Virus record (IMG/VR): IMGVR_UViG_3300045988_131075
Location: 93,671 to 157,670 of that record
Source of the DNA: a virus
DNA: 64,000 nt
Reading direction: 5' to 3' (one strand)
Position 1 is the first letter of the stretch, and every line of letters begins with the position of its first letter. Below, one piece after another: positions 23,637 through 47,523 of this stretch. A program made the translations under genes and the position numbers. The notes beneath the pieces are model-generated. The model did not search any database, was not told where the DNA came from, and saw only the letters and a program-made list of their open reading frames with translations.

Positions 23637-24097
23637 GATGGAGAATTTTTCTAATCATTAATTGAATAATATCCCAATCTCCTCCACCAAGACCACACCC
23701 AATTTTATAAGGAAAAGCAATTGGAACATAGCCAGGAACTAATTTATTTAAATTTTCTAAACAGCTAGCAAATGCTTCATAATTAGTATATCTACACGGG
23801 CCATATCCATAATCATATTGAGCAAATAAACTTGCTACTCTATGACCATCTACTGTAGTAGTGCAAGCAACCGCGCCAAGTAAAATGTCATCAGGCGGAT
23901 TTTCTAATCCTGCGATTTGCGCTTCCGCGTTTTCAATAGTTTTTTTATAATCTACATAGACTTCAGGTCAACGAATACGGATTTGTTTGGCAAGGCCTGC
24001 ACCCATAACACCTTGACAATTTACCTGATGACAAATTACAATTTTAGGGGATAAATCTAATAGACTTTTATTTTTATAATAGGTAAGATTTTTAACC
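23587..24097 (-). CDS. Macro domain protein (OARD1/TARG1-like), with one in-frame TGA
   Basis: VNCQGVMGAGLAKQIRIR-[TGA]-PEVYVDY...IAFPYKIGCGLGGGDW. Likely GTG start near 24097 after a GGAGA RBS. Joins track ORF 23968..24201 to downstream sequence. Confidence 0.5.
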
Positions 24098-24667
24098 ACT
24101 AATTCTATCTCCGGTATGATAAAAATTACAAAATCTTGAATCGCCACCGCAGGAACAAATTTCGCGCTCCTTAGTGCCCCAACATTCTGCGGTTTTATCA
24201 TCTCTTAAATGATAACACTCACATTTCTTAACTACTTCAGTAATTGGAACATCTTCGCTCTTGGATTCTTCTTTCTTTTCATAATGGCCCGGAACCCAAA
24301 TAAGATTTTCACCATTAACTTCTTCCCAAGCGTCAGCCATCTGTTGGACACATTCAAGGCAATATTGCCAATAAGAATAACATTGATCTCGTGTTAGATC
24401 TTCACTTACTTTGTCCCAAAGAGCGATAGGAATTCGTTCTCTAATTTCATATGTATCAGTTTTAGCTTGACTTACAGCTTCATTATCAATCATAGATAAT
24501 CCTCCAAGACATATTCAATTTGGTCTAATGTTCCGATTCTTTTAAGAATCGCTATAACTCTTAAAATAGTAAGAGCATCAAGAATATCGTCATAAAGGCA
24601 GATAGGGGCTTCCCACTCATTAGCGGAAGCCCACTCTGCATCTAACGATAAATGTTCCATCAATTCA

Positions 24668-26044
24668 TCAAGTTTCGTCATTTTGCACCTCTTCAGCCTC
24701 TTCCATATCGGGCGCGGTCTCTTCTGCTTTTACCAAGCCTTCAAGACACTTAAAGGCAAAATTCTTATGCTTATAAGCACAGAACTTTGGACGATTAAGA
24801 ATACGAATTACAACGCCTTCACGGACATGAGTCTTACCAATCGGATCAGGACCATCATAATACCGCTCAGCGATTTCTTTAACTTGCTCACCAGCAGTCA
24901 TACCTGCGTCATTCCAATCAGTGGTGTCATCAAGAAAACCTCTCCACAGGACAGGAACACACTTACAGCCCATCTGCTCGCAACGATAGCGCATGAAATC
25001 AGGAGTATATTCAACAACATCCCCATCTTCATTGGTCATAGTCATACGATAGACATAGAAATCAGACTTGGGAAGCACATCATAGCTACCATCACCATAG
25101 GTATAATAACCAGTGCAAGAACAACCATAAGAAAAAGTAGTAGTTTCGCCATACTTCTTAAGGAAATCCTTATCATTCAGCTTTCTATTAGAAGCAGAGG
25201 ACATAATAGGCATACCCTCATCGGTAAAACCAACAACCTCATAATAGACTTCCTCACCCTTATGGAGCTTACCCTCAAAGAAATCTGCGTGCTTCTTGCG
25301 GAACATATTAGAACCATAGAAGCCGCCCTCCCAGTCATTCAGCACAGTGCGACGAGTGCCAGATACATATCCATATTCATAAATGGGAGTGCCATCACGA
25401 CGCATAATTCTATCCAAAAGAGTTTTCTTATAACCCTTAAGCATAGGAAGATAACCGGTGCGCTGAGAAGTGCCATGCATCTTCAAAGTAATTTCAATAA
25501 GGTCATTCGGCTTAAAAGCGTTAAGATTATAAGCCAACTGCTCCGTATCAGCATGCTCAATAAACAGAGGGGCAATAGGAGCTTTCTTCTTGCGCACATG
25601 GTTCCCCTCATTCACATTACCCTGACGATTCTGACGTGCAGGAATATACTTCTTACAAATCTCATGTCCATTCAGAGTAGTAAATGCGAAGCCTTCGGTC
25701 AACTCATTAAGAAGGGCGCCAGTATAAGAAACGCAATTAAGATGGAGGAAGAGACCATCGCTCTTCTCTCCGCGCAGACGAATAGTGGTAATATTGCGCT
25801 TCATGGGGTCCATATAACCACCAATGCTCTTACCATTTTCATCTTTCTTGCGCAAAAGGTTATTATTTTCAGCAAATTCAGGACTTACCTGACCATCGGT
25901 GGGAAAATAAATACCGAGTTCATCAACTTCATAAGAAGTATCAACACATACAGTATTACCGAAACATTCACCTAACATCAGTCGGTCGGCATTCGGATGC
26001 TTCCGCAAATTCTTAATCTTACAAACATACGCATTATAAGACAT
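24668..26044 (-). CDS. RNA ligase (Rnl2-like nucleotidyltransferase)
   Basis: Motif I KMHGTS and later EGVVIRILNRPKFCAYKHK. GC-rich. Ends with tandem TGA TGA. Confidence 0.55.
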   Translation of the reverse strand: MSYNAYVCKIKNLRKHPNADRLMLGECFGNTVCVDTSYEVDELGIYFPTDGQVSPEFAENNNLLRKKDENGKSIGGYMDPMKRNITTIRLRGEKSDGLFLHLNCVSYTGALLNELTEGFAFTTLNGHEICKKYIPARQNRQGNVNEGNHVRKKKAPIAPLFIEHADTEQLAYNLNAFKPNDLIEITLKMHGTSQRTGYLPMLKGYKKTLLDRIMRRDGTPIYEYGYVSGTRRTVLNDWEGGFYGSNMFRKKHADFFEGKLHKGEEVYYEVVGFTDEGMPIMSSASNRKLNDKDFLKKYGETTTFSYGCSCTGYYTYGDGSYDVLPKSDFYVYRMTMTNEDGDVVEYTPDFMRYRCEQMGCKCVPVLWRGFLDDTTDWNDAGMTAGEQVKEIAERYYDGPDPIGKTHVREGVVIRILNRPKFCAYKHKNFAFKCLEGLVKAEETAPDMEEAEEVQNDET

Positions 26045-26473
26045 AATTAATCAATCCTTTCTTTAACTCTTTTTTCCTCTTCCAATTCCCAATTTTGAGT
26101 GGCATAACCATACTCAAAATCTACGGGGTCATCAACTTCATACCCCTGTTCCCGCATTTTTGATGTTGCTTTATACATCATTCGACCAAGACTTTTAGAT
26201 TTACCCTTTTGGACTAAACCAAAATCAATAAGATCGCTAATTAAACGACTAATTTTCTGATTGGACAATGGGCGCAAAATCATATCATTCATGCGGATTT
26301 CATCAAGAGTCATAGAATCATCTGTATTATTTAATACATCCAAAATTCTAAACTTATAATCCGCATTAACTTCTGGACGAGTGGTTGTTCTAGACCTTCC
26401 TGGCATAATTTTTTCTTCCTTTCTTAACTTTCTATAAATATTATATTATATTTTTTATATGAAATCAATAAAG

Positions 26474-26749
26474 TTAAAAGCAACCAGTTTTTTTATACTT
26501 GAAATTAGTTTTTGTATCCAAATGGGTTATTAAAAGAATATCTCCTTGTTTTTGATAAACAACTCGATAATGGCCTAATCGTCTGCGATAAGTATTTGAT
26601 TGATCACGTTTTTTATCAACATTTTTAACCTTTTCATCTACTTCTGGCGATAAGGTTAAAAATGTTCTTTCTAAATTTCTTTTGGTTTTTTCATTGGCTT
26701 TATCATAAAACTTTTTAGCCGATTTTGACAATATAATTGAATAACACAT
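26474..26749 (-). CDS. RelE/ParE-like toxin fold protein
   Basis: YRRRLGHYRVVYQKQGDILLITHL. Confidence 0.4.
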   Translation of the reverse strand: MCYSIILSKSAKKFYDKANEKTKRNLERTFLTLSPEVDEKVKNVDKKRDQSNTYRRRLGHYRVVYQKQGDILLITHLDTKTNFKYKKTGCF

Positions 26750-46321: not shown

Positions 46322-46354
46322 AGTATTTTCCTTTCTTTAAAAATTTTTATTGTT

Positions 46355-46717
46355 TTACCGCATTAGCTTGGAGCCAGGTGAGCAGGTCACCAGTTGGGGG
46401 CTCTAAAAATGTGATAGTGCGGTAAGTAGAATTGATCCAAGACGCTGTCCCCTTATACCTGTATCTAGAGTATTAACCATAATATTATTTACTGTTGTAT
46501 TATTGTACTTGATATAAGCTGAACCCACAGGGGCAATTCGAATTGCTATTGAAGTAAAATTCTTCCCATTTGAGATAAAATTTAACGAAGAAACAGTAAA
46601 TTCAATGGCAGAAGAATAAGTATCATTAATCACCCATGTTTCTTTTGGAGCAATAGGAGGGTCAGGAGCAACTTTCGCGCGCACTAAAGAATTATTTATT
46701 TTTAATAAACTTTTCAT
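46355..46717 (-). CDS. Structural protein (1 in-frame TAG)
   Basis: Track ORF 46403..46717 continues across a TAG for 16 more codons to a TAA. Confidence 0.3.
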
Positions 46718-46731
46718 ATTAAGAATTCTCC

Positions 46732-47523
46732 TTAAGATACAAGTGTATACTGGATTTTGGACATATCAAGATTAAGCGCGGGCCGCACGACATGAATAAG
46801 AGTAGCACTATCACTGCTCAAATTACCACCGCCGCCAATCACAACCCAAGCATAGTCAGAAAGGGCGGAAATAGAGGATCGCAACTGTAGATATTTAGAT
46901 ACTTTAGTTGTACTATTCCAGAACATTATCATTAGTTCATCAGATGTAATACATACTTTACCAATATAATCAAAAATATCTTTTAAATCTAAGACAAATA
47001 TATTTCTATTACCTACTACAACATTACCTACATCGTCAGCATTTTCATAGTTTGAATTAGACCAGTTATATTGATACTAATATGTGTAAGTTGGAGTATT
47101 AGGTGTATCGGGTTTGCCATAGTATTTATAACAATACTGAACCACATTTTCTGGTACAATAGCATTCTTTGCTTCACTTGATAGTGTATTATATCAAGTC
47201 GTATTCAAATATGTATCTAAAGTAGAACCTTCATATTTCTGAGCCGTAGTGCTTCAAAAAGTAGTAGTCATACTTGTACTGTTATATTTACTCGTTAAAT
47301 CATCAAACATTCCTAATACTTTACAAACATTTCCATTAACATTCAATACTCTATACTATCTCTCGGTTCCATCTAAGTTCATATTTATAATAGAACCTTT
47401 TTTAGGGGTCTCAGGAATTGTAATTCTTACTAAATTACCATTCTCCGTGATATTATCACTATTAATAGAAATTAAACTATTATTAGCAAGAACAATATTT
47501 TTATTTTGTAATAATATTTTCAT
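46732..47523 (-). CDS. Structural protein with 2 in-frame TAG and 2 in-frame TGA
   Basis: RBS AAAGGAGA then ATG at 47523. A single frame reads coherently for about 263 codons across a TAG near 47356, a TGA at 47254, a TGA at 47194 and a TAG at 47177. It joins track ORF 46732..46932. Confidence 0.4.

What the first reader, a model, noticed from the sequence alone, without database searches (positions are those of the whole stretch)
23968..47256. Sporadic in-frame TGA codons in otherwise intact genes
The macro-domain gene reads ..AKQIRIR-TGA-PEVYVDY.. (TGA at 23968-23970). In OARD1 an aromatic residue occupies the aligned spot, so Trp is plausible. The structural gene 46732..47523 has two in-frame TGA codons (47254-47256 and 47194-47196). 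They fall within one frame that I translated codon by codon over about 263 codons (..TTTF-TGA-STTAQKYEG.. and ..YLNTT-TGA-YNTLSS..). A small TM ORF begins ATG-AAA-GGG-TGA (13397-13399). Yet TGA clearly terminates other genes. The RNA ligase ends TGA-TGA, and several ATGA overlaps use it as stop. No tRNA with a UCA anticodon was found. Possible explanations are context-dependent read-through, host tRNA-Trp or tRNA-Sec near-cognate decoding, pseudogenisation, or assembly errors.
Basis: seen in the sequence. Interest (0 to 1): 0.5.

Follow-up and report, generated by a model that had tools for sequence, protein, structure and literature searches.

The report
Strain-specific TGA nonsense mutations in phage
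Three TGA codons inside two accessory genes of a human-gut phage are most likely recent, strain-specific stop mutations and not a hidden tryptophan codon; the phage's real code change is TAG read as glutamine, so the finding is mostly ordinary.

Summary
Three of the four reported in-frame TGAs are real: 23968 in the macro gene, and 47254 and 47194 in the DUF6273 tail-fibre-module gene. A second, independent assembly reproduces the two in the DUF6273 gene.

The fourth (13397) is a different case. It is conserved in 15 relatives and lies in a Shine-Dalgarno-like AAAGGGTGA upstream of a small ORF.

TGA is a genuine stop in this phage clade:
- 18 of 88 genes end in TGA, and terminal TGA swaps with TAA in 14 genes but never with TGG.
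- TGG outnumbers in-frame TGA 236 to 3 in an AT-rich genome.
- TGG>TGA appears in 1.3% of Trp columns, against 28-50% for synonymous G>A changes. That matches CAA>TAA nonsense at 1.0%.

The three TGAs replace TGG, TGG and GGA found in near-identical relatives, so no single amino acid fits. The macro gene is broken by six different lesions in 6 of 22 genomes. The real recoding is TAG to Gln: 68 in-frame TAGs, a tRNA(CUA), and two TAGs in the same structural gene.

Two caveats remain. The W110 TGA allele occurs in several independent samples. The same contig also carries, 6.7 kb beyond the window, a tRNA-like gene with UCA in a 6-nt anticodon loop.

The parts
23968..23970 (-). In-frame TGA at codon 44 of the macro-domain gene. 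Relatives have TGG (Trp).
   Evidence: TGG is found at this codon in 22 loci from relatives. TGA occurs only in the window's own contig (L203).
23602..24099 (-). Macro-domain gene (165 codons, probable GTG start overlapping the upstream stop, ends TGA). It is truncated in this strain.
   Evidence: Pfam Macro match below threshold, E=8.5e-4. Homologs are continuous. Six different lesions occur in 6 of 22 genomes. There is no in-frame start codon downstream of the TGA until near the 3' end, read directly from the sequence.
47254..47256 (-). In-frame TGA at codon 90 of the DUF6273 gene. Relatives have GGA (Gly).
   Evidence: GGA is found in L031, L137, L230, L232-L235 and L239. TGA is seen only in the window's contig and the Logan ERR1137158 assembly.
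47194..47196 (-). In-frame TGA at codon 110 of the DUF6273 gene. Relatives have TGG (Trp). This allele segregates across samples.
   Evidence: TGA also occurs in Logan contigs from SRR31800580 and ERR3986548, on different flanking haplotypes. TGG is found in L230, L232, L235, L239 and L031.
46732..47523 (-). DUF6273 gene in the tail-fibre module (263 codons). It also contains two TAG (Gln) codons at 47356-47358 and 47077-47079.
   Evidence: Pfam DUF6273, E=3.3e-7. The TAGs align with Q in homologs. Neighbouring genes are tail-fibre-like. It differs from contig 126226 by only 3 nt, two of which create the TGAs.
13397..13399 (-). TGA in ATG-AAA-GGG-TGA. It is part of a conserved SD-like AAAGGGTGA upstream of a small TM ORF and is not a sporadic in-frame codon.
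   Evidence: Conserved in 15 of 15 close relatives. L050 lacks the ATG. L084 and L054 start at a GTG inside GGGTGA, and other homologs start at ATG/TTG 5-7 codons before the conserved Gly.
57769..57858 (-). tRNA with a CUA anticodon (amber suppressor, 90 nt). It is the agent of the phage's real recoding, TAG to Gln.
   Evidence: ARAGORN. Rfam tRNA model at 56.1 bits. Conserved in relatives.
24668..24673 (-). TGA-TGA terminator of the RNA-ligase gene, an example of TGA working as a stop.
   Evidence: At this stop relatives show TGA in 28 loci and TAA in 3.

Best explanation
The three in-frame TGAs are recent point mutations that created premature stop codons in two dispensable accessory genes of a TAG-recoded (TAG=Gln) gut phage. 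The changes were TGG>TGA twice and GGA>TGA once.

TGA keeps its normal meaning as a stop. The macro-domain gene is therefore truncated after 43 residues. The DUF6273 tail-fibre-module gene is truncated after 89 residues and carries a second stop at codon 110.

The macro gene lies in an ADP-ribose and RNA-repair gene cluster and is repeatedly lost in this clade. The DUF6273 gene sits in a fast-evolving receptor-binding cassette where loss of one binding protein is tolerated or sometimes favoured.

Shown by the data: the codons, their derived state, their presence in two assemblies, and the behaviour of TGA as a stop under purifying selection. Inferred: loss of function and dispensability.
For: 1. 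Derived state. 23968 is TGG in 22 loci from relatives. 47194 is TGG and 47254 is GGA in all close and distant homologs.
2. No single amino acid fits, because the TGAs replace Trp, Trp and Gly.
3. TGA is a stop. 18 of 88 genes end in TGA. Terminal TGA and TAA interchange in 14 genes, and TGA never interchanges with TGG there.
4. Codon counts. There are 236 TGG against 3 in-frame TGA, while A-ending synonymous codons make up 70-78% of each pair elsewhere.
5. Selection. TGG>TGA occurs in 3 of 228 Trp columns (1.3%). Synonymous third-position G>A changes occur in 28-50% of columns, and CAA>TAA in 1.0%.
6. The macro gene is hit by six independent lesions in 6 of 22 genomes: TGA at W44, TGA at W142, TAA at Q29, and three frameshifts.
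7. In the tail-fibre block 45.2-47.5 kb, the window differs from its nearest IMG/VR relative by 9 non-synonymous and 0 synonymous changes.
8. An independent Logan assembly gives the identical sequence.
9. No canonical tRNA(UCA) was found in the window or in about 30 kb of tRNA arrays of relatives. No SECIS-like structure lies downstream of the TGAs (z = -0.9, +0.4, -1.7).
Against: 1. Two of only three differences from the nearest relative in the DUF6273 gene create TGA. By my rough estimate that has a chance of about 0.005 for random substitutions, though after a first knockout the second hit would be neutral.
2. The W110 TGA allele is found in at least three runs (ERR1137158, SRR31800580, ERR3986548) on different flanking haplotypes. 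It is therefore not a private dead-end mutation, and the gene shows no other decay.
3. This genome has three in-frame TGAs, while 15 sibling genomes have 0 or 1.
4. The same contig encodes a tRNA-like gene with UCA at the anticodon positions.
5. Reads could not be inspected.
Confidence: 0.7

Rival explanations
1. Leaky decoding. The TGAs arose as mutations but are partly read through, so the genes are weakened and not dead. One possible route is near-cognate tRNA-Trp(CCA), which would restore the wild-type residue at the two Trp sites. The other is the phage's own tRNA-like gene, whose 6-nt anticodon loop carries UCA in this genome.
For: - Four of the five clear in-frame TGA events in the clade are at Trp codons.
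- The W110 TGA allele persists in several samples with the rest of the gene intact.
- Relatives encode their own tRNA-Trp(CCA).
- The window's contig carries a tRNA-like gene (Rfam tRNA model 46.2 bits) with loop CUUCAA, against AUUUAA in 8 relatives. The two alleles differ only in the loop, and stem changes keep the pairing.
- UGA read-through by tRNA-Trp is established in bacteria, for example the phage Qbeta A1 protein (my own knowledge).
Against: - Two TGAs in series, one at a Gly codon, would leave very little full-length product by near-cognate reading.
- Other genomes with the UCA-type allele (contig 126669, L209, L211, L212) show no in-frame TGA in about 100 kb.
- The genomes with the UUA-type allele still end most genes in TAA, so this tRNA-like gene cannot be an efficient suppressor.
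- To my knowledge, tRNAs with 6-nt anticodon loops are not known to decode efficiently.
- Purifying selection against TGG>TGA is about 30-fold.
Confidence: 0.2
2. General reassignment of TGA, either to Trp (code 4) or to Gly (code 25), in the phage or in its host.
For: Two TGAs align with Trp and one with Gly. TGA-recoded gut phages exist, and the code can change between close relatives (bioRxiv 10.1101/2021.08.26.457843).
Against: - 236 TGG against 2 TGA at Trp positions in a 32% G+C genome.
- 361 GGA against 1 TGA at Gly positions.
- 18 genes end in TGA, and TGA interchanges with TAA at stops.
- Selection against TGG>TGA is as strong as against TAA nonsense.
- No canonical tRNA(UCA) was found.
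Confidence: 0.02
3. The TGAs are base-calling or assembly errors.
For: Sibling contigs carry single-base indels, some in an A7 run of the macro gene. That shows some noise or real slippage in this data set. The reads were not inspected.
Against: - A Logan assembly of ERR1137158 matches the ENA contig exactly over 5.2 kb, including both TGAs.
- The W110 TGA is seen in other runs.
- The window's private substitutions are 51 synonymous to 29 non-synonymous. That ratio indicates real mutations under selection and not random errors.
Confidence: 0.03
4. The segments on either side of each TGA are separate genes, or the TGA encodes selenocysteine.
For: None beyond the presence of the TGA itself.
Against: - Homologs are single continuous ORFs.
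- No start codon follows the macro TGA (read from the sequence).
- The aligned residues are Trp and Gly, not Cys.
- No downstream hairpin stands out.
- The ARAGORN 'tRNA-SeC' calls in L179 and L180 get no Rfam tRNA hit even at E<=1 and lie in coding sequence.
Confidence: 0.01

Closest known systems
Genetic code 15 gut phages (TAG read as Gln with a phage suppressor tRNA; Borges et al., bioRxiv 10.1101/2021.08.26.457843; Peters et al., PMC9523058)
   Same: This phage fits that pattern. It has 68 in-frame TAGs concentrated in structural, tail-fibre and tRNA-region modules. TAG aligns with CAA or CAG in relatives. It carries a tRNA(CUA), and its genes end in TAA or TGA. The source is a human gut sample and the genome is about 190 kb.
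   Different: The finding concerns TGA, which is not reassigned in code 15. Membership of a named clade such as Sapphire or Agate was not tested.
Code 4 phages (TGA read as Trp; the Jade and some Agate clades in Borges et al.)
   Same: In-frame TGA occurs at conserved Trp positions, including in a structural gene. That paper reports TGA accumulating in structural genes of phages more than 90% identical to standard-code relatives.
   Different: Here only 2 of 238 Trp positions are TGA and one TGA is at a Gly position. TGA is a working stop under purifying selection. There is no canonical tRNA-Trp(UCA), and no TrpRS or RF1 module was seen in the parts examined.
Natural UGA read-through by tRNA-Trp, such as the Qbeta A1 read-through protein (my own knowledge)
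   Same: A UGA that tRNA-Trp can decode at low frequency would restore the wild-type residue at the two Trp sites.
   Different: Programmed read-through sites are conserved. These TGAs are strain-specific, and one is at a Gly codon.
Nonsense polymorphism and pseudogenisation of phage accessory genes (anti-defence genes and receptor-binding genes)
   Same: The alleles are derived and strain-specific. The same gene is disrupted independently several times. The genes sit in accessory or hypervariable modules.
   Different: The W110 TGA allele is unusually widespread, occurring in several samples and on several haplotypes.
Code 25 (TGA read as Gly; Absconditabacteria and Gracilibacteria and their phages)
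   Same: One TGA replaces GGA.
   Different: The other two replace TGG. GGA outnumbers TGA at Gly positions 361 to 1, and TGA terminates genes.

Membership tests
Code 4 (TGA = Trp) | TGA is common in frame at conserved Trp positions, usually outnumbering TGG in AT-rich genomes | tested here: not met
   236 TGG against 2 TGA at Trp positions. A-ending codons make up 70-78% of comparable pairs.
Code 4 (TGA = Trp) | TGA is not used to end genes | tested here: not met
   18 of 88 genes end in TGA. TGA and TAA swap at the terminal stop of 14 genes, and TGA never swaps with TGG there.
Code 4 (TGA = Trp) | TGG>TGA changes behave as synonymous | tested here: not met
   1.3% of Trp columns show the change, against 28-50% for synonymous G>A and 1.0% for CAA>TAA.
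Code 4 (TGA = Trp) | A tRNA with a UCA anticodon is present | tested here: inconclusive
   None in the window and no canonical one in the relatives' tRNA arrays. The same contig has a tRNA-like gene with UCA in a 6-nt loop at L210:2275-2345. Its function is unknown.
Code 25 (TGA = Gly) | In-frame TGA at conserved Gly positions | tested here: not met
   Only one of the three TGAs is at a Gly position, and there are 361 GGA codons.
Code 15 (TAG = Gln) phage | Many in-frame TAGs aligning with Gln codons in relatives | tested here: met
   68 in-frame TAGs. 33 of about 60 TAG exchange events involve CAA or CAG. 13 long same-frame ORF junctions are TAG.
Code 15 (TAG = Gln) phage | A phage-encoded tRNA(CUA) | tested here: met
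   57769-57858 on the minus strand. It is conserved in relatives, in two allelic forms.
Programmed stop-codon read-through | The stop codon and its context are conserved among relatives | tested here: not met
   Relatives have TGG or GGA at the three sites. No downstream structure stands out.
Selenocysteine insertion | TGA aligns with Cys or Sec, a SECIS hairpin lies downstream, and a tRNA-Sec is present | tested here: not met
   The TGAs align with Trp and Gly. Folding z-scores are -0.9, +0.4 and -1.7. The ARAGORN 'SeC' calls fail the Rfam tRNA model.
Nonsense polymorphism / pseudogene | The allele is derived, is limited to one strain or a few, and leaves no alternative start for the downstream part | tested here: met
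   No in-frame ATG, GTG or TTG follows the macro TGA until near the 3' end (sequence read).
Nonsense polymorphism / pseudogene | The same gene is disrupted independently in other genomes | tested here: met
   Macro gene: six different lesions in 6 of 22 genomes. DUF6273 gene: a second TGA here, and the gene is replaced by other cassettes in many relatives.
Nonsense polymorphism / pseudogene | No full-length protein is made | not testable with these tools
   This needs proteomics or a reporter assay.

The most novel reading that the evidence does not exclude
This phage lineage carries a polymorphic, non-canonical suppressor-type tRNA with a 6-nt anticodon loop. The triplet at the anticodon positions is UUA in most genomes and UCA in this one and four others. 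The UCA allele would allow low-level decoding of UGA. In-frame TGAs, such as the W110 allele now seen in several samples, could then persist in late and accessory genes. That would be an incipient second stop-codon reassignment inside a phage that is already TAG-recoded.
Probability: 0.1. Interest if true: 0.8.

Novelty: already known. Interest (0 to 1): 0.3.

Why it matters
The main practical value is for annotation. This contig should be translated with TAG as Gln and TGA as stop. The macro and DUF6273 genes should be marked as disrupted in this strain, not joined with Trp.

It also shows how easily sporadic nonsense alleles in metagenomic phage genomes can be mistaken for recoding. Comparing sibling genomes separates the two, using terminal-stop swaps and the rate of TGG>TGA relative to synonymous changes.

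The side observations would matter more if they hold up. One is a segregating W110 TGA allele. The other is a tRNA-like gene that alternates between UUA and UCA in a 6-nt loop. Together they could show how a second code change starts.

Tried and rejected
- Megablast of 23000-47900 against GenBank phages found nothing.
- The ARAGORN 'tRNA-SeC (tca)' calls in L179 and L180 looked like an opal suppressor. They get no Rfam tRNA hit at E<=1, have a poor acceptor stem and lie in a variable coding region, so I rejected them.
- Two extra Rfam tRNA hits in the window were checked for a UCA anticodon. 38932-39071 looks like a tRNA-Lys(UUU)-type gene with a ~66-nt insert in the anticodon loop. 61520-61594 has a TCT anticodon. 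Neither carries UCA.
- I searched the window for a DGR template repeat that might explain clustered changes in the DUF6273 gene and found none. The TGAs also lie outside the hypervariable C-terminal stretch.
- A de novo scan for in-frame TGAs in sibling genomes gave three hits. All were spurious: a TGA-ATG gene junction and two antisense frames of glycine-rich genes.
- 18 kb more of the same contig, beyond both window ends, has no further in-frame TGA.
- Exact-product look-ups failed for the truncated 77-aa macro ORF and for the ORF that runs off the window end.
- I could not link the tRNA-like allele to the DUF6273 genotype in other samples. The two loci are 23 kb apart and the relevant Logan contigs are only 3-6 kb.
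- The odd tRNA shows no clear sequence origin among 882 tRNAs predicted in the fetched loci.
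Full report
**What is in the sequence**

Nearly all genes of the window lie on the minus strand.
- The TGA at 23968-23970 interrupts a macro-domain ORF, reading ..AKQIRIR-TGA-PEVYVDY... The Pfam Macro match is below threshold at E=8.5e-4.
- The frame 46732..47523 has 263 codons and matches DUF6273 at E=3.3e-7. It holds TGA at codon 90 (47254-47256) and codon 110 (47194-47196).
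- That same frame also holds TAG at codon 56 (47356-47358) and codon 149 (47077-47079).
- ATG-AAA-GGG-TGA is present at 13397-13408.

A codon-usage scan of the minus strand finds only the three TGAs above with coding-like sequence on both sides. It finds about 45 such TAGs. Same-frame junctions between long ORFs are TAG in 13 cases. They are TGA in only one real case, at 23968.

**Where the window comes from, and whether the bases are reliable**

Exact-product look-ups show that the window is part of ENA contig ERZ28663842 ZEEV15-1_SAMEA3664854 scaffold_25. The contig is 189,664 bp, and window position equals record position minus 93,959. An independent Logan assembly of run ERR1137158 matches window 44108-49321 exactly, including both TGAs.

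The window's private substitutions, compared with 15 sibling genomes, are 51 synonymous and 29 non-synonymous. That ratio is typical of real mutations under selection, not of random errors. For the DUF6273 gene an assembly or base-calling artefact is therefore unlikely. For the macro site I have only the ENA contig itself, and the reads could not be inspected.

**The phage's genetic code**

Under a TAG-sense model I minus-strand genes. 69 end in TAA, 18 truly end in TGA, and one apparent TGA end is the premature stop at 47254.
- The genes contain 68 in-frame TAG codons, 236 TGG and 3 TGA.
- Across relatives at 86-98% DNA identity, TAG exchanges mainly with CAA and CAG, in 33 of about 60 unique events.
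- A tRNA with a CUA anticodon sits at 57769-57858.

This matches the known code 15 pattern of gut phages (bioRxiv 10.1101/2021.08.26.457843; PMC9523058).

TGA behaves as a stop:
- At terminal stops, TGA and TAA swap between relatives in 14 genes. TGA never swaps with TGG there.
- TGG>TGA is seen in 3 of 228 Trp columns (1.3%).
- Synonymous third-position G>A changes (AAG, GAG, CAG, TTG) are seen in 28-50% of columns.
- CAA>TAA is seen in 1.0%, against about 45% for the synonymous first-position C>T changes of Leu codons.

TGA at Trp codons is therefore removed by selection about as strongly as TAA nonsense. If TGA were a Trp codon, the A-ending preference of 70-78% would predict far more TGA than TGG.

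**The three TGAs compared with relatives**
- *Macro gene.* The codon is TGG in all 22 loci from relatives. Only the window's own contig has TGA.
- *DUF6273 codon 110.* It is TGG in close and distant homologs.
- *DUF6273 codon 90.* It is GGA (Gly) in close homologs.

No single amino acid explains all three. All three are derived states reachable by one base change.

**Why these two genes**

The macro gene is disrupted in 6 of 22 genomes by six different lesions:
- TGA at W44 (this contig)
- TGA at W142 (contig 117464)
- TAA at Q29 (contig 3300029860_000005)
- +1 and -1 frameshifts in an A7 run (contigs 124399 and 126226)
- another frameshift (GCA_948271155.1)

Its neighbours are NADAR, RNA-ligase, metallophosphatase and ParE-like genes. 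I infer an accessory ADP-ribose and RNA-repair or anti-defence cluster. No in-frame start follows the TGA, so the C-terminal 121 residues would not be made.

The DUF6273 gene lies among tail-fibre genes that carry Mtd_N domains. Many relatives keep only its first ~100 nt and have a different gene body, which is cassette-like behaviour. Against the nearest IMG/VR relative (contig 126226), the block 45.2-47.5 kb shows 9 non-synonymous and 0 synonymous differences. Two of those nine are the TGAs.

**A complication: the W110 allele is not private**

Looking up the first 55 residues of the gene retrieved Logan contigs from other runs.
- L233 (SRR31800580) and L234 (ERR3986548, listed with two samples) have GGA at codon 90 but TGA at codon 110.
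- L230, L232, L235, L239 and L031 have GGA and TGG.

The three TGA-110 sequences have different flanking haplotypes, and each of those haplotypes also occurs with TGG. The allele has therefore either spread by recombination or arisen more than once. It came before the G90 TGA, which is seen only in this sample.

This fits a tolerated or sometimes favoured knockout of one receptor-binding accessory protein. It also leaves room for a leaky allele.

**The small TM ORF (13397)**

This TGA is conserved in all 15 close relatives.
- Relative L050 has GCG in place of the ATG but keeps AAAGGGTGA.
- More distant homologs (L084, L054) start at a GTG inside GGGTGA.
- Others start at ATG or TTG 5-7 codons before the conserved Gly, after a GGAG-type motif.

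I read the motif as a Shine-Dalgarno-like sequence and not as a sense codon. In the window's clade that GTG is out of frame with the TM ORF, and no canonical in-frame start exists. The true start (ATT or ATA, re-initiation, or a shift) is unresolved.

**The search for a UGA decoder**
- There is no tRNA(UCA) in the window by ARAGORN or Rfam.
- There is none in the tRNA arrays of relatives, apart from two ARAGORN 'SeC (tca)' calls. Those fail the Rfam tRNA model and lie in coding sequence.
- The two extra Rfam tRNA hits in the window do not carry UCA.

Beyond the window, on the same contig (L210:2275-2345, window-equivalent 70658-70728), lies a 71-nt tRNA-like gene. It scores 46.2 bits against the Rfam tRNA model over its full length. 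Its anticodon loop has six bases, CUUCAA. In the model alignment UCA occupies the anticodon positions and position 38 is missing.

Eight relatives have AUUUAA (UUA) and five genomes have CUUCAA. No other variants were found. The two alleles differ only at loop positions 32 and 35. The two stem substitutions seen elsewhere keep the pairing (G-C to G-U, and U-A to U-G). Both alleles occur with and without the neighbouring tRNA-Trp(CCA).

This looks like a functional RNA, and both triplets are complementary to stop codons. I could not show that it decodes anything. Other genomes with the UCA-type allele have no in-frame TGA in about 100 kb. Genomes with the UUA-type allele still end most genes in TAA. 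To my knowledge, 6-nt anticodon loops are not known to support efficient decoding.

**Other tests**

No structure stands out downstream of the TGAs (z = -0.9, +0.4, -1.7). An extra 18 kb of the same contig has no further in-frame TGA.

**Verdict**

The best explanation is strain-specific nonsense mutation of two dispensable accessory genes in a TAG=Gln phage in which TGA remains a stop (confidence 0.7).

The main rival is that the alleles are leaky (0.2). Reading could be near-cognate by tRNA-Trp or by the odd UCA-type tRNA-like gene.

The other rivals are unlikely:
- general TGA reassignment
- sequencing error
- split genes
- selenocysteine

As a recoding claim the finding is ordinary and already explained. 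The polymorphic tRNA-like gene and the widespread W110 TGA allele are the parts worth following up.

Noticed in passing
L210:2275-2345 (same contig as the window, window-equivalent 70658-70728); also L172, L173, L175, L176, L179, L180, L208, L209, L211, L212, L214-L221: A 71-nt tRNA-like gene (Rfam tRNA model 46.2 bits) with a 6-nt anticodon loop. It exists as two alleles only: AUUUAA (UUA, 8 genomes) and CUUCAA (UCA, 5 genomes, including this one). The rest of the molecule is invariant apart from two changes that preserve pairing.
   Followed up: partly
window 57769-57858 (-) and about 50 nt downstream (57720-57768); L174, L178, L180 and L156 for the other allele: The amber-suppressor tRNA(CUA) occurs as two unrelated bodies at the same locus in sibling genomes. 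One is a 90-nt form with a long variable arm (this window) and the other is a 73-nt form. Both are followed by the same conserved element, which gives a weak HDV-like ribozyme hit (26 bits in L179). That resembles the theta ribozymes described next to suppressor tRNAs (PMC10879173).
   Followed up: partly
window 46740-46885 (-), codons about 214-251 of the DUF6273 gene; L033:4282-4393: The stretch between WLRSS and VRPALNLD is hypervariable among homologs while its flanks are conserved, like the variable region of a diversity-generating retroelement (DGR). Relative L033 has a second, 73%-identical copy of it about 500 nt downstream of the gene, which is a candidate template repeat. No such repeat is in the window.
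   Followed up: partly
window 38932-39071 (-): A tRNA gene (Rfam 59.9 bits, missed by ARAGORN) is interrupted by a ~66-nt insert in the anticodon loop. By position and by its loop remnants it corresponds to the tRNA-Lys(UUU) of relatives.
   Followed up: partly
window 61520-61594 (-): A tRNA hit (Rfam 46 bits, missed by ARAGORN) with loop CCTCTAA. The anticodon is TCT, but position 33 is C where U is usual.
   Followed up: no
window 40148-40276 (-): A RAGATH-33 RNA match above the gathering score (126.8 bits against 120.4).
   Followed up: no
window genes 7436-9346, 7153-7464, 26047-26406, 26759-27541, 1314-2327, 43497-44657, 44757-45236: Sibling genomes carry insertions of 287-1661 nt inside or next to these genes. 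GIY-YIG endonuclease genes are scattered through the region (for example 57863-58618). This suggests mobile introns or homing endonucleases that differ between strains.
   Followed up: no
window 13151-13408 (-): The small TM ORF has no canonical in-frame start codon in this clade. The GTG that serves as the start in more distant relatives is out of frame here.
   Followed up: partly
window 45227-47523 compared with IMGVR_UViG_3300045988_126226 (L031): Three adjacent tail-fibre-module genes differ from the nearest relative by 9 non-synonymous and 0 synonymous substitutions. This suggests recent adaptive or relaxed evolution of the receptor-binding module.
   Followed up: partly
window 30800-33277 (+), 24683-25975 (+), 34139-35836 (+), 17207-18361 (+): Very long open reading frames run antisense to large minus-strand genes. 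This is unusual for a genome with 32% G+C.
   Followed up: no
window 23940-23946: An A7 run in the macro gene (T7 on the plus strand) is the site of a +1 and a -1 frameshift in two sibling genomes. These may be slippage events or homopolymer errors.
   Followed up: partly
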